UHGV virus genome: UHGV-0109417
Source: a virus
DNA length: 14,709 bases
Direction: 5' to 3' (one strand)
The notes under the pieces were generated by a model. The model saw only the letters and a program-made list of their open reading frames with translations. It made no database searches and had not been told where the DNA came from. Position numbers and translations under genes: made by a program. Positions within the stretch are counted from its first letter, which is position 1, and every line of letters starts with the position of its first letter. This document shows, piece by piece, positions 3,319-10,234 of this stretch.

Positions 3319-3813
3319 TCATTTCCAATTGCAAGACTGTGAAATTTTTTCCACAACCTTATCAATCTCAGACAAGTCAAACTCAACTACTTGCATAGTT
3401 GATCCATAAGGTTCAAACCCAAAAATAGCTTTTTTATGCTTAGCCAAGGTCTTTATAAATTGTATTGGTTGTGGAGCAAATGCAGAATCACCGCCTTCCC
3501 CACCTCCCCAAACACTCTTGACCGGCTTTCCGCCATCTAACCGCACTGTAATTCTTGGGTTGTCCGAACCCATATAATCATTGAATGATAAATAGGCATC
3601 TGTTTTGTTATCACTACAACGCAACACCAGTGAAGTTGCACGATCAGTACCTGCTTTGTTATATGAATCTGGTGATAAATTAAGAGCCACAAAGTCAGTC
3701 TGGTCAGTCATTTTATTTATCTCAGACTTTGTTATCCACGGCCCTAACTTCTCTACACCAGCATTTGCTGTAAACGAGGCACTTATAACAAAGGCTAAAA
3801 TAAATTTTCTCAT
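3319..3813 (-). CDS. secreted/periplasmic hypothetical protein (moron)
   Basis: 164 aa. N-terminal signal peptide MRKFILAFVISASFTANA|GVEK. AAGGAG RBS. Low GC relative to its neighbours. Has its own terminator. Confidence 0.75.
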   Translation of the reverse strand: MRKFILAFVISASFTANAGVEKLGPWITKSEINKMTDQTDFVALNLSPDSYNKAGTDRATSLVLRCSDNKTDAYLSFNDYMGSDNPRITVRLDGGKPVKSVWGGGEGGDSAFAPQPIQFIKTLAKHKKAIFGFEPYGSTMQVVEFDLSEIDKVVEKISQSCNWK

Positions 3814-3959
3814 AACCCTATCTCCTTGGATTCAAAGAACTAAATATTATCAAGTCTCTTGCCACTAGAAAACCCACTTTATTTCCAAACTCTGATGGCA
3901 TTCCTGAAAATCCGCTTCATACTCACTTGCCCCGCCCTATCATCCTGAGTAGCTAACCG

Positions 3960-6101: not shown

Positions 6102-6347
6102 TCAGGCGGCATGTGAATCTTGTTTAATTCGGTCAGGGTTAGCTGCTTGACGGAGCCATTCAGCCGTAAACTGCCCATTTGATGCGTCAGCCAAAAGCTG
6201 CGAATAGTTGGTTTTCTCTGTGTACTCAGTACGAGGCAGCGCCGCGTTCTTCACCCACTTGTGAATAGCAACGTTCGATAGGCCACACAGGCGAGCAGCA
6301 GCGGTTTGACCGCCTACAGCTTCGATTGCAAATTGCATTGGGTTCAT
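6102..6347 (-). CDS. cro: Cro-like HTH regulator (YdaS/DUF1019 type)
   Basis: 81 aa. AVGGQTAAARLCGLSNVAIHKWVK resembles Rac YdaS (VVGGQSAMARLLGVSPPSVNQWIK). It is the first gene downstream of the predicted PR. Confidence 0.75.
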   Translation of the reverse strand: MNPMQFAIEAVGGQTAAARLCGLSNVAIHKWVKNAALPRTEYTEKTNYSQLLADASNGQFTAEWLRQAANPDRIKQDSHAA

Positions 6348-7208: not shown

Positions 7209-7254
7209 CGGTGGCCTGATGAGACGTTTTGGTGAAAGCATATAAGGACTGGTG

Positions 7255-8121
7255 ATGGAAAACACTGGCTTACACGATGTTAATTTTTCACTTAGATATG
7301 ACGGTTTGGATGCTGAAAAGCATGAGATTGAACTTTCTTCGCTCGGTGAATCGCTAAAGGGATTTTCGAAGATATTAGCTACAGCTGGAACCTTCGCATT
7401 AACCCAAAAGTACTCGCGAAGCACCTCAACTCAAGAGGTTAAAATTTACGCTACCGAAGCTAGGGCCAATTGTTTTTCTCTTGATACTATCATGAATTTT
7501 ATCAGTCAGTCTCAATTGTTCTCAGGGTCTGCGGGGGCTATACTTGGCGCATTAGTGCCTTATATCTTCGCTAAAAACTCGCAGAAGAAAGAGGAAATGA
7601 AATACCTAAAAGAAGCACTTGAGAAGGCAATTGAGGCCCTCGGAAATAAAGATAAAGATACCATCTCAGGTCTAATCTCAGTGATTGACAAGATGGCTAG
7701 TGAGTTACGCCCATCAGTTAGACAGGCAGTTTCCCCCATCGGTACCACCTGTAATAAGATAAGCGTCACACCGGGGAATGGTTTCAAGCCTGCTGTAATT
7801 GATGAGCAAGATAAAGCAGTAATAGACCAGTTGGACGACGACGAAGTTCTTGGCTTAAGGGAGTATCGAATCTTCCTTACTGAATTCGACGCTCACCGAA
7901 TGACCGCTAAAGTCATTATAGAAGGTGATGATTCAGATAAGCGCATCTCAGCACAAATAAGCGATCCATCTGCTTCAAAGGCAGACAACCCGTATCTCAT
8001 TTCACTTAGTCGTTTTCTGTCAACGGGTCTAAGTCATGAGTCAGCGGTAAAAGTAACTGCCAAAGCAGCAGTTAGAAAAGGGGCTATTAGTAAACTTTTC
8101 ATAGTTGATATTGAGCTTTAA
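7255..8121 (+). CDS. hypothetical 288-aa protein in the rexAB position
   Basis: ATG 7255 with AAGGA 7 nt upstream, 47 nt after the cI stop, with no terminator between. One hydrophobic segment, [18 protein letters not shown] (aa ~88-105). No family recognised. Confidence 0.8.
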
Positions 8122-8123
8122 CA

Positions 8124-8149
8124 ACCGGCCACCGCGCCGGGTTTTTTGT
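8124..8149 (+). terminator. intrinsic terminator shared by the convergent 288-aa and 72-aa genes
   Basis: Stem CCGGC (8125-8129) / GCCGG (8136-8140), loop CACCGC, then GTTTTTTG. Weaker on the minus strand (followed by TTGTT). Confidence 0.6.
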
Positions 8150-8151
8150 GC

Positions 8152-8370
8152 CTACTTCACAGCTTTACTACCCTTCCTGACTATCTCAGCTGCATCCCGT
8201 AGCATCCCCTTATGGATCACGTTTCCTACGGCTTTGCGCTTCCCTTCCAGAAATCCCACAATGTTGTCCTTATTGATTTCAATTCCGTTATAAACCAGCT
8301 CGAACACTACGCACCCAACCTCTCCAGCCATGAAGGCCATTCGTTCATCTGCACGTTCATCTCGTTCCAT
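8152..8370 (-). CDS. hypothetical 72-aa protein adjacent to OL
   Basis: MERDERADERMAFMAGEVGCVVFELVYNGIEINKDNIVGFLEGKRKAVGNVIHKGMLRDAAEIVRKGSKAVK. ATG 8370 is preceded by AGGAGGT. The tracked start at 8412 has no RBS. Confidence 0.7.
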   Translation of the reverse strand: MERDERADERMAFMAGEVGCVVFELVYNGIEINKDNIVGFLEGKRKAVGNVIHKGMLRDAAEIVRKGSKAVK

Positions 8371-8432
8371 AGCTACCTCCTGATGTTTTTTGCAGCATAG
8401 CACGTACTGCACAAATCCATAACAGAACTAAA

Positions 8433-8517
8433 TTAACCAATAAATCATAACCTTAATAACCAATGGCAAAATAATTAACCAACGGTTATTGACTGAAAAT
8501 AACCATTAGTTAATAAT
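8433..8517 (+). promoter_or_regulatory. OL operators and PL promoter
   Basis: -35 TTGACT 8489-8494, 17-nt spacer, -10 AATAAT 8512-8517. Dyads TTAACCAACGGTTAT 8475-8489 and ATAACCATTAGTTAA 8499-8513 have the same consensus and the same 24-bp centre spacing as the OR pair. Extra half-sites (TTAACC/ATAACC) occur at 8433, 8447 and 8456. Confidence 0.65.
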
Positions 8518-8563
8518 CAGCTCATCGAAACGAAACATCGACAGCTGAGCGAAGTTAGCCAGC

Positions 8564-8602
8564 GGCGGACAGCAAGTCGCCTGCTTCTTTAACAAATCAG
8601 AC
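8564..8602 (+). promoter_or_regulatory. boxA-like antitermination element preceded by a small hairpin (nutL-equivalent, rrn-like order)
   Basis: TGCTTCTTTAACAA (8582-8595) versus the boxA consensus TGCTCTTTAACAA (one extra T). It continues ATCAGAC, like the rrn leader (TTTATCAGAC). Hairpin GGCGG (8564-8568) / TCGCC (8577-8581). Confidence 0.45.
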
Positions 8603-9062
8603 TGAGTGACAGGCAAGCCGTAGCTCTCCTGGCAAAAAGAAATGGCACCCGATGGGATCGAGGTAAGCACTGAGTCCGTATGCGTACGGTAGGTGTAGAG
8701 GACCACGCTGCGATGAGCTGATAAGTCACTCAATTTGAAGCGCTCCGATGATGGGGCGCTGATTCAACTTAGAGGAGTGATTCCAATGAAGAACTAAAGC
8801 GGACAGACCGCAGCCTAAAGGCAATGCAGCAGTAATGATGCCGCCCTGAGTCGCCGAATGGCGAGCCTGTGTAGTGATGGGTCAAGGTTCTTATATCAAA
8901 ACAAGCTCCGGTAAAGCAGCGAGAACGCCAGACGCGCACCGGTTATGAGCGGCGATGAGCGACAAGGTCTCAAGGGCATGTGCGCGGCCACTGCGAGAGT
9001 GTGGCGAAGTTTACCAGCAGCTCTTTGCGAGGGGCTGACGGTAAACAAAAAGAGGAGTGTGT

Positions 9063-9404
9063 ATGGCAGATAAAAAAACGGCGCCACTACTGCTTAACGT
9101 AGACGCCAGCGAGGTACTTACTCAGACCGGGGAGCTTTTAAAGTTACTTGAACTTCCAGCCAGTTCCTTTCAGGGAATTCCTGAGCATGTCGTCGATCTG
9201 TTTTTTGACCGTGTCCGTGGCCTGATTGACAACATCGTCCTTAGTGATTTCTCGACCACAGTCAGCACAACTGACGCCGGTGAAATTTGTCTCAAAGTCA
9301 AAATCATCGGGCTGGTTGAACATCTCACTTCCGCAGTCAGGGCACACGGTCCGCATGGTTTGCATGAATATATCCTTTCTACTGTTGGGGAGATTAAAGA
9401 GTAA
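9063..9404 (+). CDS. 113-aa ORF, possibly a shadow of the antisense zinc-ribbon gene
   Basis: Strong RBS (AGAGGAG 9051-9057, ATG 9063) and the same strand as the operon. However, the composition is L/V-rich with CTT-dominated Leu codons, as expected for the codon-opposed antisense frame of an acidic protein. Confidence 0.3.
   Translation: MADKKTAPLLLNVDASEVLTQTGELLKLLELPASSFQGIPEHVVDLFFDRVRGLIDNIVLSDFSTTVSTTDAGEICLKVKIIGLVEHLTSAVRAHGPHGLHEYILSTVGEIKE
9144..9365 (-). CDS. 73-aa zinc-ribbon protein (antisense to the PL operon)
   Basis: MQTMRTVCPDCGSEMFNQPDDFDFETNFTGVSCADCGREITKDD... Two CxxCG knuckles lie 22 aa apart. AAGGA 9 nt upstream of the ATG. A T7 run preceded by a weak hairpin lies about 50-70 nt downstream on the minus strand (9070-9110). 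Confidence 0.55.
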   Translation of the reverse strand: MQTMRTVCPDCGSEMFNQPDDFDFETNFTGVSCADCGREITKDDVVNQATDTVKKQIDDMLRNSLKGTGWKFK

Positions 9405-9474
9405 GCGATTTCTTGCTGTTGGGGAATAGCGGGAAAGCGCGCGCCGGGCGCGGATAAATACCCCGGCACTAACT

Positions 9475-9603
9475 GGAATGTTTTGGGCTGGCAGACGGTT
9501 ATCAGCTAGTTGGTGAGGTAATGGCTCACCAAGGCGACGACGGCCTTCCCTGCTGCTTGAAAGCGGGGAGCCAGCACCAAAACATTTCTCCCGCATCAGC
9601 GGG
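9475..9603 (+). ncRNA. stem-closed structured element containing 16S rRNA-like sequence (function unknown)
   Basis: Closing stem 9475-9492 / 9570-9588 (10 bp + bulge + 6 bp, plus 2 more pairs). Internal hairpins 9510-9532 and 9548-9568, and a 3' hairpin 9590-9603. 9504-9540 matches conserved 16S sequence from memory. No credible ORF covers the element. Confidence 0.45.
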
Positions 9604-9623
9604 TAACGACAGAGGGTAAGGGG

Positions 9624-9920
9624 ATGATCGACGACATCAAGCGCATCGACTCAATGATAAATGCGCTTCGCAATATGAAACAGGACATCAAGCGTCAGCA
9701 GAAACTAAGTGAAATAAACAGTTTAGACCTGTCGCCGAAGCAAGCTCAAAAGCGCAATGCCGATGCTGACTGGATTGCGATGGAACAGATTAAGCGTCGG
9801 CATGAGCTGCACGCTCTGTCTGTTGAGCTTGGGTTCGCTGAGCGCCGGGAAAGTTATGCTCCATTTGAATTAACTGACGGGTGGCACCGATTCGACCACA
9901 AGCCGCGCGAACCTCAATAG
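9624..9920 (+). CDS. hypothetical 98-aa protein
   Basis: ATG 9624 follows AGGGTAAGGGG. K/R/Q-rich helical N-terminal half. Followed directly by a terminator. Confidence 0.7.
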   Translation: MIDDIKRIDSMINALRNMKQDIKRQQKLSEINSLDLSPKQAQKRNADADWIAMEQIKRRHELHALSVELGFAERRESYAPFELTDGWHRFDHKPREPQ

Positions 9921-9942
9921 CCGCCTAACCAGCGGCTTTTTC
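9919..9942 (+). terminator. intrinsic terminator inside the PL operon
   Basis: Stem GCCGC (9920-9924) / GCGGC (9932-9936), 7-nt loop, then TTTTTC. Confidence 0.7.
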
Positions 9943-10075
9943 ATACCTGGAGTCATTTACGAGTGGCTCAAGTTATGACAATCGGCGGCCATCCACCGCC
10001 CATTGAAACACTGAATAAATGCGTTGAAGTCTTGTATTAACCGTTCCGTTCGCCGCGATAAGGCCAAGAGGATTT

Positions 10076-10234
10076 ATGACAGTCACCCACAACGGCAAGC
10101 AGTACACAGCCAAAAAGCTCAACGATAACGAGTGGCAGCTGACGTCGGTGTCGGCACCGCGTGAAAAACTGGTGCTTAACCGCTGGCAGATGCATGTTGC
10201 CGGACTTCTTGAGCAGGTGGAGAAACAATCATGA
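10076..10234 (+). CDS. hypothetical 52-aa protein (below the ORF-track cutoff)
   Basis: MTVTHNGKQYTAKKLNDNEWQLTSVSAPREKLVLNRWQMHVAGLLEQVEKQS*. AGAGGA upstream. The stop overlaps the next ATG (ATGA). Confidence 0.5.
   Translation: MTVTHNGKQYTAKKLNDNEWQLTSVSAPREKLVLNRWQMHVAGLLEQVEKQS

What the first reader, a model, noticed from the sequence alone, without database searches (positions are those of the whole stretch)
9475..9623. 16S rRNA-like block inside a stem-closed, hairpin-rich spacer of the PL operon
9504-9540 (AGCTAGTTGGTGAGGTAATGGCTCACCAAGGCGACGA) is, from memory, a perfect 37-nt match to the conserved 16S segment near E. coli rrs positions ~245-285, in the variant seen in Vibrio/Pseudomonas-type sequences. 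It differs from the E. coli K-12 version (AGCTAGTAGGTGGGGTAACGGCTCACCTAGGCGACGA) at 4 positions. Those include a compensatory A:U to U:A swap in the 8-bp hairpin 9510-9517/9525-9532.

The flanks show weaker but collinear resemblance to later 16S 5'-domain segments:
- 9543-9569 GGCCTTC..AGCGGGGAG (cf GGCCTTCGGGTTGTAAAGTACTTTCAGCGGGGAG).
- 9573-9583 AGCACC..AAC (cf AGCACCGGCTAAC).
- 9590-9620 CCCGCATCAGCGGGTAACGACAGAGGGTAAG (cf CCAGCAGCCGCGGTAATACGGAGGGTGCAAG).
This looks like a 16S 5' domain shortened by internal deletions.

The block is closed by an interrupted ~18-bp stem (9475-9492 with 9570-9588) and ends at the RBS of the 98-aa ORF (ATG 9624). Only a start-less upstream extension of a minus-strand ORF covers it. 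I do not know of rRNA-like sequence described in a temperate-phage early operon.

Possible readings:
- A relic of captured rrn DNA.
- An rRNA mimic that binds a ribosomal protein or assembly factor to control downstream translation, as r-protein operon leaders do.
- A decoy for an rRNA-targeting enzyme.
Basis: partly seen in the sequence, partly recalled or inferred. Interest (0 to 1): 0.75.

Follow-up and report, generated by a model that had tools for sequence, protein, structure and literature searches.

The report
Phage RNA mimicking 16S helix 11
Just upstream of an early gene, this E. coli prophage encodes a small folded RNA that copies the part of 16S ribosomal RNA bound by ribosomal protein S17, and similar copies occur in many unrelated phages, often among their tRNA genes, which suggests a previously undescribed way for phages to interact with the host ribosome machinery.

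Summary
The core observation holds. Window 9504-9540 is a 37-nt copy of 16S helix 11 (Rfam SSU model 237-283, E=8e-8; 33/37 to E. coli's own 16S; 37/37 to Pseudomonas, Vibrio and Streptomyces 16S). It is closed by the 18-bp stem 9475-9492/9570-9588.

The element is not a relic, a chimera or coding sequence. It is a three-way-junction RNA on the + strand, in the PL leader directly upstream of phi80 gene N (100% identical). It occupies a hypervariable slot on top of a conserved stem. Other lambdoid phages carry tRNA-like or unrelated cassettes there (at least 23 types).

The same mimic occurs in lambdoid, Yersinia, Shewanella, Jedunavirus, P2-like, T4-like, N4-like and Streptomyces phages. None of the 112 hits to the first viral scan pattern is a real 16S gene. 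All three helices show compensatory changes. Actinophage versions match 16S positions 106-311 with h8-h10 deleted. That is the h7/h11/h12 junction, which published work assigns to uS17.

Best reading, inferred and not shown: an excised small RNA that mimics the uS17 site. No Rfam family and no paper describing it was found.

The parts
8489..8517 (+). PL-like sigma-70 promoter (TTGACT-17-AATAAT). It starts the transcript that carries the element. Context only.
   Evidence: Promoter scan, 10/12 match. Window 7210-8595 is 90% identical to the phi80 segment that holds the annotated pL and CI operators.
8582..8591 (+). nutL boxA-like sequence TGCTTCTTTA. Context only.
   Evidence: It follows the hairpin at 8564-8581. 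It aligns with the annotated nutL boxA of phi80, L216 2696-2704, TGCTTTTTA. Assigned by homology; function not tested.
9144..9365 (-). ECs_2282-family CxxC zinc-ribbon gene, antisense to the PL leader. The true start is most likely the ATG at 9365 (Met78 of the annotated 150-aa ORF).
   Evidence: NCBIfam NF047912 matches only residues 84-139, E=4.9e-23. The translation and an AAGGA RBS upstream of Met78 are seen. The PGAP extension to 9596 covers the RNA element.
9475..9492 (+). 5' strand of closing stem P1 (GGAAUGUUUUGGGCUGGC). Positions 9475-9486 are the conserved left flank of the cassette slot.
   Evidence: MFE structure. 98% of cells paired, with compensatory changes, in 51 sister sequences. 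All 18 P1 pairs show compensatory changes across families.
9497..9545 (+). Arm P2, the mimic of 16S helix 11. Pairs: base stem 9497-9500/9542-9545; 9502-9503/9539-9540; 9505-9507/9533-9535; hairpin 9510-9517/9525-9532; loop GGUAAUG 9518-9524.
   Evidence: Rfam SSU_rRNA_bacteria positions 237-283, E=8.4e-8. 33/37 to E. coli 16S. Across 60 distinct phage copies, 94.2% paired against 83.5% in shuffles, with 83 compensatory cells.
9547..9569 (+). Arm P3, a hairpin (9547-9554/9562-9569) in the position of 16S helix 12.
   Evidence: MFE structure. 4 of 6 pairs show compensatory change within family A. In the Shewanella phage copy cmscan aligns this arm to h12 (SSU 237-308). Real E. coli 16S h11-h12 matches model R1 positions 24-93.
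9570..9588 (+). 3' strand of closing stem P1 (GCCAGC-A-CCAAAACAUUUC). A9576 is bulged. It contains an acceptor-end-like ACCA at 9576-9579. Positions 9577-9588 are the conserved right flank.
   Evidence: The resemblance to a tRNA acceptor end is inferred from sister cassettes that ARAGORN calls tRNA-like.
9590..9603 (+). Conserved leader hairpin CCCGC-AUCA-GCGGG. It is present downstream of every cassette type and in phi80.
   Evidence: Function unknown.
9612..9616 (+). Shine-Dalgarno GAGGG of gene N, 7 nt before the ATG.
   Evidence: Read directly from the sequence. Conserved with phi80.
9624..9920 (+). Gene N of phi80 type (98 aa), the first gene after the element.
   Evidence: 100% amino-acid identity to phi80 N. 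The annotation 'early transcription antiterminator protein N' comes from the phi80 record. phrog_25091.
9919..9937 (+). Intrinsic terminator after N (tL1A of phi80).
   Evidence: Terminator scan. phi80 annotation.

Best explanation
Window 9475-9588 (+ strand) encodes a ~114-nt three-way-junction RNA in the untranslated PL leader, directly upstream of the phi80-type gene N.

Anatomy:
- An 18-bp stem, made from two flanks conserved among lambdoid phages, closes a swappable cassette.
- Here the main arm of the cassette reproduces 16S rRNA helix 11 in its pan-bacterial consensus form.
- The second arm sits where helix 12 sits.

Family: it belongs to a family of phage RNAs found in at least eight unrelated phage lineages. 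These RNAs copy the h7/h11/h12 three-helix junction of the 16S 5' domain. Published work assigns that junction to the primary assembly protein uS17. The family leaves out h8-h10, the bS20 site.

Shown here: the sequence and structure mimicry, the compensatory changes in all three helices, the strand, the family distribution, and the genomic contexts (N leaders, tRNA clusters, stand-alone genes).

Inferred:
(1) The RNA is cut out of the leader. RNase III acting on the long stem is the likeliest route, as with the RNase III hairpin of the lambda N leader and the processing stems around 16S. RNase P acting at the acceptor-like end is also possible. Cutting would sever nutL from the N message.
(2) The released RNA acts in trans as a protein-binding mimic, most likely of the uS17 site. 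It would titrate newly made uS17 and so disturb host 30S assembly, or it would form a stable RNP.

The confidence given is for 'a selected, processed RNA that works by being recognised as h11 by a host factor'. Confidence that uS17 specifically is the ligand is about 0.3.
For: - Match to h11.
- Structure: MFE z=-5.8.
- Family A (51 distinct sequences): 98.4% of cells paired, 10 pairs with double changes, 0/500 shuffles reach this, slid controls 37-53%.
- Cross-family h11 arm: covariation 0.303 against 0.113 in shuffles.
- Model-fitted cross-family alignment: 93% paired against 70.8%, 32/41 pairs compensatory, including every pair of P1 and P3.
- Strand: invariant U.G pairs on the + strand. Model R1 scores 133 bits on + and 18 bits on -.
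- Recurrence: 112 IMG/VR hits to the first pattern, none of them a 16S gene, with different closing stems. The degenerate scan added 35 further non-16S copies.
- Cultured phages carrying it: Yersinia 30.14, Shewanella Y11, ZCEC13/SBP, Omar/Stella, Muldoon, Pokken.
- Extended mimicry: SSU positions 106-311 with h8-h10 deleted, 68-71 bits, above the gathering score.
- uS17 site: PMC4604426 states that S17 interacts with helix 11 and S20 with helices 6, 8, 9 and 10. [quoted passage not shown]
- No conserved neighbouring protein across lineages, which points to a universal host ligand.
- Association with tRNA genes. tRNA-like alternatives occupy the same slot.
- Position between a canonical nutL and a true lambda-N homologue in L222 and L243.
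Against: - No binding, processing or expression data exist. The ligand is inferred only from which rRNA helices are copied.
- In this window the h7 strand is replaced by a non-homologous closing stem, so any uS17 contacts to h7 may be missing.
- The slot tolerates many unrelated cassettes, and some relatives have none. The phage does not strictly need the h11 cargo.
- The cassette is rare: 13 of 5426 complete E. coli genomes.
- The search patterns fixed part of the core, so the apparent invariance of h11 is partly ascertainment.
- Alignment A5 was fitted to the model, which favours pairing.
- An 18-bp stem with a bulge is a plausible RNase III substrate but not a proven one.
Confidence: 0.55

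Rival explanations
1. Cis-acting leader. The h11 mimic recruits a ribosomal protein (uS17) or an assembly factor onto the PL leader next to the N ribosome-binding site. This would couple N translation or leader processing to the state of host ribosome synthesis, in the way r-protein operon leaders work.
For: - The element ends 35 nt before the N start codon, in this phi80-N-type window.
- In lambda-N-type phages it sits between a canonical boxA/boxB and the N ATG, with the cassette ending about 25 nt before the ATG.
- In lambda the same interval holds a regulatory RNase III hairpin that controls N translation (own knowledge: Wilson et al. 2002, EMBO J 21:4154).
Against: - The same RNA occurs inside tRNA gene clusters of lytic phages, upstream of a P2 gpE-like tail chaperone gene, and as a stand-alone gene with its own terminator in Jedunavirus.
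- The slot works with tRNA-like and unrelated cassettes.
- Different downstream genes follow the same leader.
Confidence: 0.2
2. Decoy for an rRNA-targeting nuclease or modifying enzyme, for example an abortive-infection or defence effector that attacks 16S rRNA. By analogy, phage tRNA genes are thought to offset tRNA-targeting defences.
For: - It is interchangeable with tRNA-like cassettes and co-located with tRNA genes.
- The slot is hypervariable and each allele is at low frequency, as at arms-race loci.
- Defence systems that cleave rRNA and tRNA exist: the abstract of the type IX retron preprint 10.64898/2026.07.14.738597.
Against: - No enzyme known to me targets helix 11.
- h11 lies low in the 30S body, in the S17-binding domain (PMC5591316), not at a functional centre. 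Its placement in the body is own knowledge.
- The mimic keeps a whole junction rather than a short cleavage site.
- The mimic carries the pan-bacterial consensus, not the host-specific sequence.
Confidence: 0.15
3. A processing or spacer element only. What matters is the conserved long stem as an RNase III site or insulator between nutL and N. The apical cargo, including the h11 copy, is a neutral passenger picked up by recombination.
For: - The flanks that form the lower stem are conserved across at least 23 cassette types.
- Mosaic joints with HK639 and phi80 fall on the stem.
- Some relatives lack a cassette.
Against: - The h11 arm and the junction are maintained by compensatory changes.
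- The mimic recurs in phage lineages that do not have this slot at all.
Confidence: 0.08
4. Non-functional relic of captured rrn DNA, an assembly chimera, or part of a minus-strand coding sequence.
For: - The actinophage copies are collinear with 16S positions 106-311, so the family may have originated by capture of rDNA.
- PGAP annotates a 150-aa minus-strand ORF across the block.
Against: - Independent assemblies carry it with point variation and covariation.
- The copy is closer to the bacterial consensus than to host 16S.
- The protein-family model covers only residues 84-139 of the ORF.
- 0 of 112 viral hits to the first pattern are true 16S genes.
Confidence: 0.02

Closest known systems
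16S rRNA 5'-domain h7/h11/h12 three-helix junction (uS17 binding domain)
   Same: Sequence and secondary structure of helix 11, including base stem, internal loops and the GGUAAUGGC loop. A second arm sits at the h12 position. Actinophage members also keep the h7 strands and the h12 loop.
   Different: About 100 nt instead of 1.5 kb. Not part of an rrn operon. h8-h10 are deleted. In this window the h7 strands are replaced by an unrelated closing stem, which gives a circularly permuted topology. It is encoded by phages.
Ribosomal-protein operon leaders that mimic rRNA (S15, S8/spc, L1, L20, S4 leaders; review cited in PMC7247131)
   Same: An mRNA leader structure that imitates an r-protein binding site on rRNA and lies just upstream of a translation start.
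   Different: No r-protein gene lies downstream; the next gene is phage N. No uS17 leader appears in the leader survey I checked. The imitation here is near-identical in sequence over 37-47 nt, rather than a few shared nucleotides. The same RNA also occurs away from any translation start.
RNase III-sensitive hairpin of the lambda N leader, between nutL and the N RBS (own knowledge: Kameyama 1991; Wilson 2002)
   Same: Same position in the PL operon. In L222 and L243 it sits directly between a canonical nutL and a lambda-N homologue. A long double-stranded stem.
   Different: No sequence similarity to lambda. Cleavage is untested. The stem here carries a swappable structured cargo.
DicF sRNA of the Qin prophage (own knowledge)
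   Same: A small RNA embedded in, and processed out of, the early-left-type operon of a lambdoid prophage.
   Different: DicF is an Hfq-dependent base-pairing RNA. This element is a folded protein-site mimic, with no evidence of antisense targets.
Phage tRNA genes and tRNA-like elements
   Same: It occupies the same slot as tRNA-like cassettes (HK639, L176) and lies within tRNA clusters in Muldoon, Pokken and L069. The closing stem ends in ACCA.
   Different: ARAGORN finds no tRNA in the window. There is no D arm, anticodon arm or T arm.
GOLLD/ROOL large phage ncRNAs (own knowledge)
   Same: Structured non-coding RNAs of unknown function carried by phages, often next to tRNA genes.
   Different: They are far larger and have no rRNA similarity. 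No Rfam family other than SSU matches here.

Membership tests
Bacterial SSU rRNA gene (Rfam RF00177) | Reaches the family gathering score and spans the rRNA domains | tested here: not met
   32.2 bits against a gathering score of 50. Only model positions 237-283 of 1533 are matched.
Bacterial SSU rRNA gene (Rfam RF00177) | Local sequence and structure of helix 11 | tested here: met
   E=8.4e-8, with all helix-11 pairs formed except two non-standard ones. 33/37 to E. coli 16S. 37/37 to many bacterial 16S genes.
Autoregulatory r-protein leader (rRNA mimic) | Imitates the rRNA site of an r-protein | tested here: met
   It copies h11, and at family level the h7/h11/h12 junction. That junction is assigned to uS17 in PMC4604426 and PMC5591316.
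Autoregulatory r-protein leader (rRNA mimic) | Lies upstream of the operon that encodes the cognate r-protein | tested here: not met
   The downstream gene is phi80 N. No r-protein gene is in the window's ORF list or in the neighbour annotation.
Autoregulatory r-protein leader (rRNA mimic) | Binds the protein and represses translation | not testable with these tools
   Needs EMSA or filter binding and reporter fusions.
Lambda-type N-leader processing hairpin | Located between nutL and the N start codon on the PL transcript | tested here: met
   pL-like promoter at 8489-8517, boxA-like sequence at 8582-8591, N at 9624. In L222 and L243 the cassette lies directly between boxA/boxB and a lambda-N homologue.
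Lambda-type N-leader processing hairpin | Cleaved by RNase III | not testable with these tools
   Only the 18-bp stem with a 1-nt bulge is shown.
tRNA / tRNA-like element | Cloverleaf recognised by tRNA finders | tested here: not met
   ARAGORN finds 0 genes in the window. There is no Rfam tRNA hit. Sister cassettes in the same slot are called tRNA-like.
put antiterminator RNA (HK022/HK639) | Corresponds to the annotated putL-like element of HK639 | tested here: not met
   HK639 putL-like is at L002 5575-5700, about 420 nt upstream of the slot. The window element aligns to L002 ~6107-6200, where HK639 carries a different cassette.
Proposed family: phage mini-16S (h11 / h7-h11-h12) RNA | h11-like arm closed, together with a second hairpin, by a stem formed from the flanks; on one strand; in non-rRNA context | tested here: met
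   Window: 133 bits on the + strand with model R1. Full-length matches of 36-58 bits in families B, C and D, in L097, L228, L222 and L243, and 32 bits in L004. Pair statistics. None of the 112 first-pattern viral hits is a 16S gene.

The most novel reading that the evidence does not exclude
Phages from Actinobacteria to Gammaproteobacteria carry a previously undescribed class of small RNAs that are miniature copies of the uS17-binding junction of 16S rRNA. They are expressed together with tRNAs or, in lambdoid phages, from a hypervariable 'small-RNA expression slot' on the processing hairpin of the N leader. They would act by capturing a primary 30S assembly protein, or another h11-recognising host factor, to reprogramme or shut down host ribosome biogenesis, or to blunt an rRNA-directed defence.
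Probability: 0.4. Interest if true: 0.9.

Novelty: new variant of a known kind. Interest (0 to 1): 0.8.

Why it matters
rRNA mimicry is known from bacterial r-protein operon leaders. I found no virus-encoded, cross-phylum copy of an rRNA assembly junction in Rfam 15 or in the searched literature.

If the RNA binds uS17, or another factor that reads helix 11, it would be a new way for phages to interfere with ribosome assembly or with translation-directed immunity. It would also be a ready-made minimal RNA for studying uS17 recognition.

Separately, the leader hairpin upstream of N turns out to be a hypervariable platform that carries at least 23 different structured cassettes, some tRNA-like, one rRNA-like and others unknown. 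That opens a defined and testable locus for discovering phage small RNAs. It also gives a concrete handle on how N leaders are processed outside lambda.

It also corrects genome annotation. PGAP and several phage records call ORFs across this RNA.

Tried and rejected
blastn-short against an E. coli rrn operon found only a chance 9-mer. Rejected.
- Rfam families other than SSU. There were none at gathering score in the window and none at E<=10 around the block. The other slot cassettes gave no rRNA or tRNA hit, only one very weak tmRNA-like hit.
- Are the other cassettes also rRNA mimics? BLAST of 23 cassette types against rrnH was negative except for the h11 type. ARAGORN called 2 of 23 tRNA-like.
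- Minus-strand coding. Rejected, because the protein family model covers only residues 84-139.
- Plus-strand ORF 9057-9404 (HK639_45-like). It gives only a weak PHROG hit, and it ends before the element.
- A conserved protein neighbour. Downstream ORFs differ between lineages: N types, a P2 gpE-like chaperone, unrelated ORFs, or none.
- Moraxella phage Mcat16 and several short 'phage' records turned out to be true 16S sequence. They were excluded.
- T-arm-like sequence upstream of the L226/L246 copies. ARAGORN calls no tRNA or tmRNA there, so nothing is claimed.
- MAFFT plus RNAalifold across families recovered only the h11 arm, because P1 and P3 are not alignable by sequence. A covariance model was needed.
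- Literature. Nine searches found no description of a phage 16S or helix-11 mimic. The library lacks most subscription journals, so this is absence in that library only.
- The genome-contig scan with the exact 37-mer was saturated by real 16S genes.
Full report
**1. The observation**

Window 9504-9540 reads AGCTAGTTGGTGAGGTAATGGCTCACCAAGGCGACGA.
- No Rfam family reaches its gathering score anywhere in the window.
- A permissive cmscan of 9300-9700 gives a single hit. 9498-9544 (+) aligns to SSU_rRNA_bacteria positions 237-283 (helix 11) at 32.2 bits, E=8.4e-8, with the helix-11 pairing preserved.
- Against an E. coli rrnH operon fetched for the purpose, the block is 33/37 identical to 16S 246-282 (E=2e-7).
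They include the compensatory swap at 9511/9531.
- A degenerate helix-11 pattern hits the window once and hits none of 200 shuffles.
- The exact 37-mer is present in true 16S genes of Pseudomonas, Vibrio, Shewanella, Pseudoalteromonas, Streptomyces and many other phyla. Of 120 genome hits, 104 were verified as 16S by downstream landmarks.
- So the block carries a widespread bacterial consensus form of h11, not E. coli's own variant.
9475-9492 pairs with 9570-9575 plus 9577-9588, giving 18 bp with A9576 bulged. The MFE is -58.8 kcal/mol and z=-5.8.

- Only the 9-mer AGCGGGGAG matches (E=2.9), and most sister copies have GTGGGGAG there.
- 9547-9569 is a covarying hairpin.
- 9570-9588 is the 3' strand of the stem.
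- 9590-9620 is a leader hairpin plus RBS that phi80 and all other cassette types share.

**2. Where it sits**

- The 98-aa ORF at 9624-9920 is 100% identical to gene N of phage phi80 (annotation).
- The window is a mosaic. 7210-8595 is phi80-like and includes pL and the boxA of nutL. 9010-9485 is 98% identical to HK639. 9577-10079 is 99% phi80.
- A pL-like promoter lies at 8489-8517, and the tL1A-like terminator lies at 9919-9937.
- The element therefore lies on the PL transcript, in the leader just upstream of N.
- PGAP annotates a 150-aa minus-strand ORF (9144-9596) across it. The NCBIfam zinc-ribbon model matches only residues 84-139, and Met78 (ATG 9365) has a good RBS. The part over the element is most likely a spurious extension.

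**3. A variable slot**

- HK639 matches both flanks of the element but not the middle. In its place ARAGORN calls a 70-nt tRNA-like element with a GGTTCGAATCC T-arm and a CCA end.
- I scanned IMG/VR for the conserved right flank and found at least 23 different cassettes between the same flanks. Two are tRNA-like by ARAGORN. None of the others resembles rRNA. Some relatives have no cassette.
- The two flanks (GGAAUGUUUUGG / CCAAAGCAUUUC) pair with each other, so every cassette sits on top of the same long stem.
- In two IMG/VR phages that have a genuine lambda-N homologue, an h11 cassette lies directly between a canonical nutL (boxA GCTCTTAAA, boxB GCGCTGAAAAAGCGC) and the N start codon.
- In lambda that interval holds the RNase III-sensitive regulatory hairpin (own knowledge).

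**4. A family of phage RNAs**

- A pattern for the h11 core found 112 stretches in IMG/VR. None is followed by the next 16S landmarks, so none is a real 16S gene.
- A more degenerate pattern added further variants.
- GenBank phages that carry it include Yersinia vB_YenM_30.14, Shewanella vB_SbaS_Y11, Escherichia ZCEC13 and Klebsiella SBP (Jedunavirus), Streptomyces Omar and Stella, Serratia Muldoon and Cronobacter VP8 (both ~167-kb genomes; the Muldoon record notes homology to T4), and the Stenotrophomonas phages Pokken, Piffle and Paxi (Schitoviridae).
- The lineages share the h11 arm but have unrelated closing stems and second hairpins.
- cmscan shows that the mimicry goes further in some lineages:
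  - The Shewanella copy aligns to SSU 237-308 (h11 plus h12).
  - Streptomyces phage Omar aligns to SSU 106-311 (68 bits).
  - An IMG/VR contig aligns to SSU 108-309 (71 bits, above the gathering score), with the 99 model positions of h8-h10 replaced by 3 nt.
  - Another contig reaches h13.
- The family is thus a miniature of the h7/h11/h12 junction of the 16S 5' domain.

**5. Evidence for a selected RNA structure**

- In 51 distinct copies of the lambdoid type (alignment A3), 98.4% of cells pair in the three-way junction. Ten pairs show changes on both sides. No shuffle out of 500 reaches the observed values. Slid controls pair at 37-53%.
- Several pairs are invariant U.G on the + strand. They would be A-C on the other strand.
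- Across 60 distinct h11 arms from all lineages (A4), 94.2% of cells pair against 83.5% in shuffles. The covariation score is 0.303 against 0.113.
- A covariance model built from A3 scores the window at 133 bits on + and 18 bits on -. It finds full-length matches in the other lineages at 32-58 bits. It also matches real E. coli 16S h11-h12 over model positions 24-93, which places arm P3 at the h12 position.
- In the resulting alignment, 93% of cells pair against 70.8% in shuffles. 32 of 41 pairs carry compensatory changes, including every pair of the closing stem and of P3. That alignment is fitted to the model, which favours pairing.
- Part of the core was fixed by my search patterns, so the invariance of h11 is partly ascertainment.

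**6. Contexts**

- In Muldoon, in Pokken and in IMG/VR contig L069, the RNA lies within tRNA gene clusters on the same strand.
- In Jedunavirus it is a stand-alone unit followed by a terminator among oppositely oriented tail genes.
- In an AT-rich, P2-like group it lies just upstream of a gpE-like tail chaperone gene.
- In Omar it lies in a gene-poor genome end.
- In lambdoid and Yersinia phages it lies in the early-left operon.
- No protein neighbour is shared between lineages. This points to a ligand supplied by all hosts.

**7. Mechanism (inference)**

[quoted passage not shown] - The phage RNA keeps the first junction and deletes the second. The most economical reading is a mimic of the uS17 site.
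- The long closing stem resembles the RNase III processing stems that flank 16S in pre-rRNA, and the RNase III hairpin of the lambda N leader. The acceptor-like ACCA end and the tRNA-like sister cassettes also allow RNase P.
- I therefore propose that the cassette is cut out of the leader. In lambdoid phages this also separates nutL from the N message. The released RNA would then bind uS17 or another h11-reading host factor, either titrating it or forming a stable RNP.
- None of these steps has been tested.
- Rivals are:
  - a purely cis regulatory role on N translation, which fits the lambdoid copies only;
  - a decoy for an rRNA-directed nuclease, which fits the tRNA association and the hypervariability, but no enzyme known to me targets h11;
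  - a neutral passenger on a processing stem, which the covariation and the recurrence outside the slot contradict.
- A relic, a chimera or coding sequence is excluded.

**8. Novelty**

- No Rfam 15 family other than SSU matches.
- The literature searches found no description of a phage 16S mimic.
- A survey of r-protein leaders that I checked lists no S17 leader and no phage case.
- The library lacks most subscription journals, so prior description cannot be ruled out.
- The cassette is rare in E. coli, at 13 of 5426 complete genomes.
- I rate it a new variant of a known kind (rRNA mimicry by a leader or small RNA), with a substantial chance that it is a new class of phage RNA.

Noticed in passing
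L002 (phage HK639, NC_016158) 6124-6193, the position equivalent to window 9487-9570: An unannotated 70-nt tRNA-like element occupies the same slot. ARAGORN calls it tRNA-Ile (gat), with a T-arm GGTTCGAATCC and a CTCCACCA end. The Rfam tRNA model does not hit it, so it is not a canonical tRNA.
   Followed up: partly
IMG/VR loci L119-L215; slot equivalent to window 9487-9576: The leader hairpin upstream of N is a hypervariable slot. At least 23 unrelated structured cassettes (78-196 nt) lie between the same pairing flanks. Many have an acceptor-like stem GGTGTGGTG/CACCACACC followed by ACCA, and some have T-arms. One scaffold (GAATGCGCAGGCTGATGCGC ... GCCGGAGATCAGCACCGGCC) is shared with the Jedunavirus RNA but carries different inserts.
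   Followed up: partly
window 9144-9596 (- strand): RefSeq/PGAP annotates a 150-aa 'ECs_2282 family putative zinc-binding protein'. The family model covers only residues 84-139. The likely start is ATG 9365 (73 aa). This gene is antisense to the PL leader transcript.
   Followed up: yes
window 9485 / 9571-9577: The mosaic joints between HK639-like sequence (up to 9485), the cassette, and phi80-like sequence (from 9577) fall on the two strands of the closing stem. This suggests that the conserved stem serves as a recombination boundary for cassette exchange.
   Followed up: partly
L004 (Streptomyces phage Omar, NC_054662) 1717-1781, 2113-2175, 2614-2678, 2878-2957: Four Hammerhead_II ribozyme matches above the gathering score (41-48 bits) lie between small genes, downstream of the phage's mini-16S RNA (550-667) on the same strand.
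   Followed up: no
L146 743-837 (-), L120 1354-1433 (+), L127 3394-3474 (-): Weak Trp_leader-like cmscan hits (23-29 bits, E 0.08-2.3). In L146 and L120 they lie about 360-450 nt upstream of the slot; in L127, about 930 nt upstream. They may reflect a terminator/antiterminator-type structure in the PL leader.
   Followed up: no
L120 8444-8588: A complete SraC/RyeA and SdsR/RyeB sRNA locus (175 and 115 bits) lies near the end of the fetched stretch of a 46-kb IMG/VR 'viral' contig. It may be host DNA at a prophage border.
   Followed up: no
L257 (Moraxella phage Mcat16, KR093640) ~3650-3830; also several short unannotated 'phage' records: These records contain genuine 16S rRNA gene sequence, continuing through the 341F/GGCAGCAG landmarks. 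They reflect host DNA or contamination rather than the mimic.
   Followed up: yes
L006 (Escherichia phage ZCEC13) 2451-2549; L003 (Yersinia phage 30.14) 2252-2914; L256 (Pokken) 1925-2107: Deposited annotations call hypothetical-protein ORFs across the h11-mimic RNA. These calls are probably spurious.
   Followed up: no
window 9590-9603: The hairpin CCCGC-AUCA-GCGGG, immediately after the slot and before the SD, is conserved in phi80 and downstream of all cassette types, while the gene that follows varies. Its role is unknown; a protein-binding site or translational control are possibilities.
   Followed up: no
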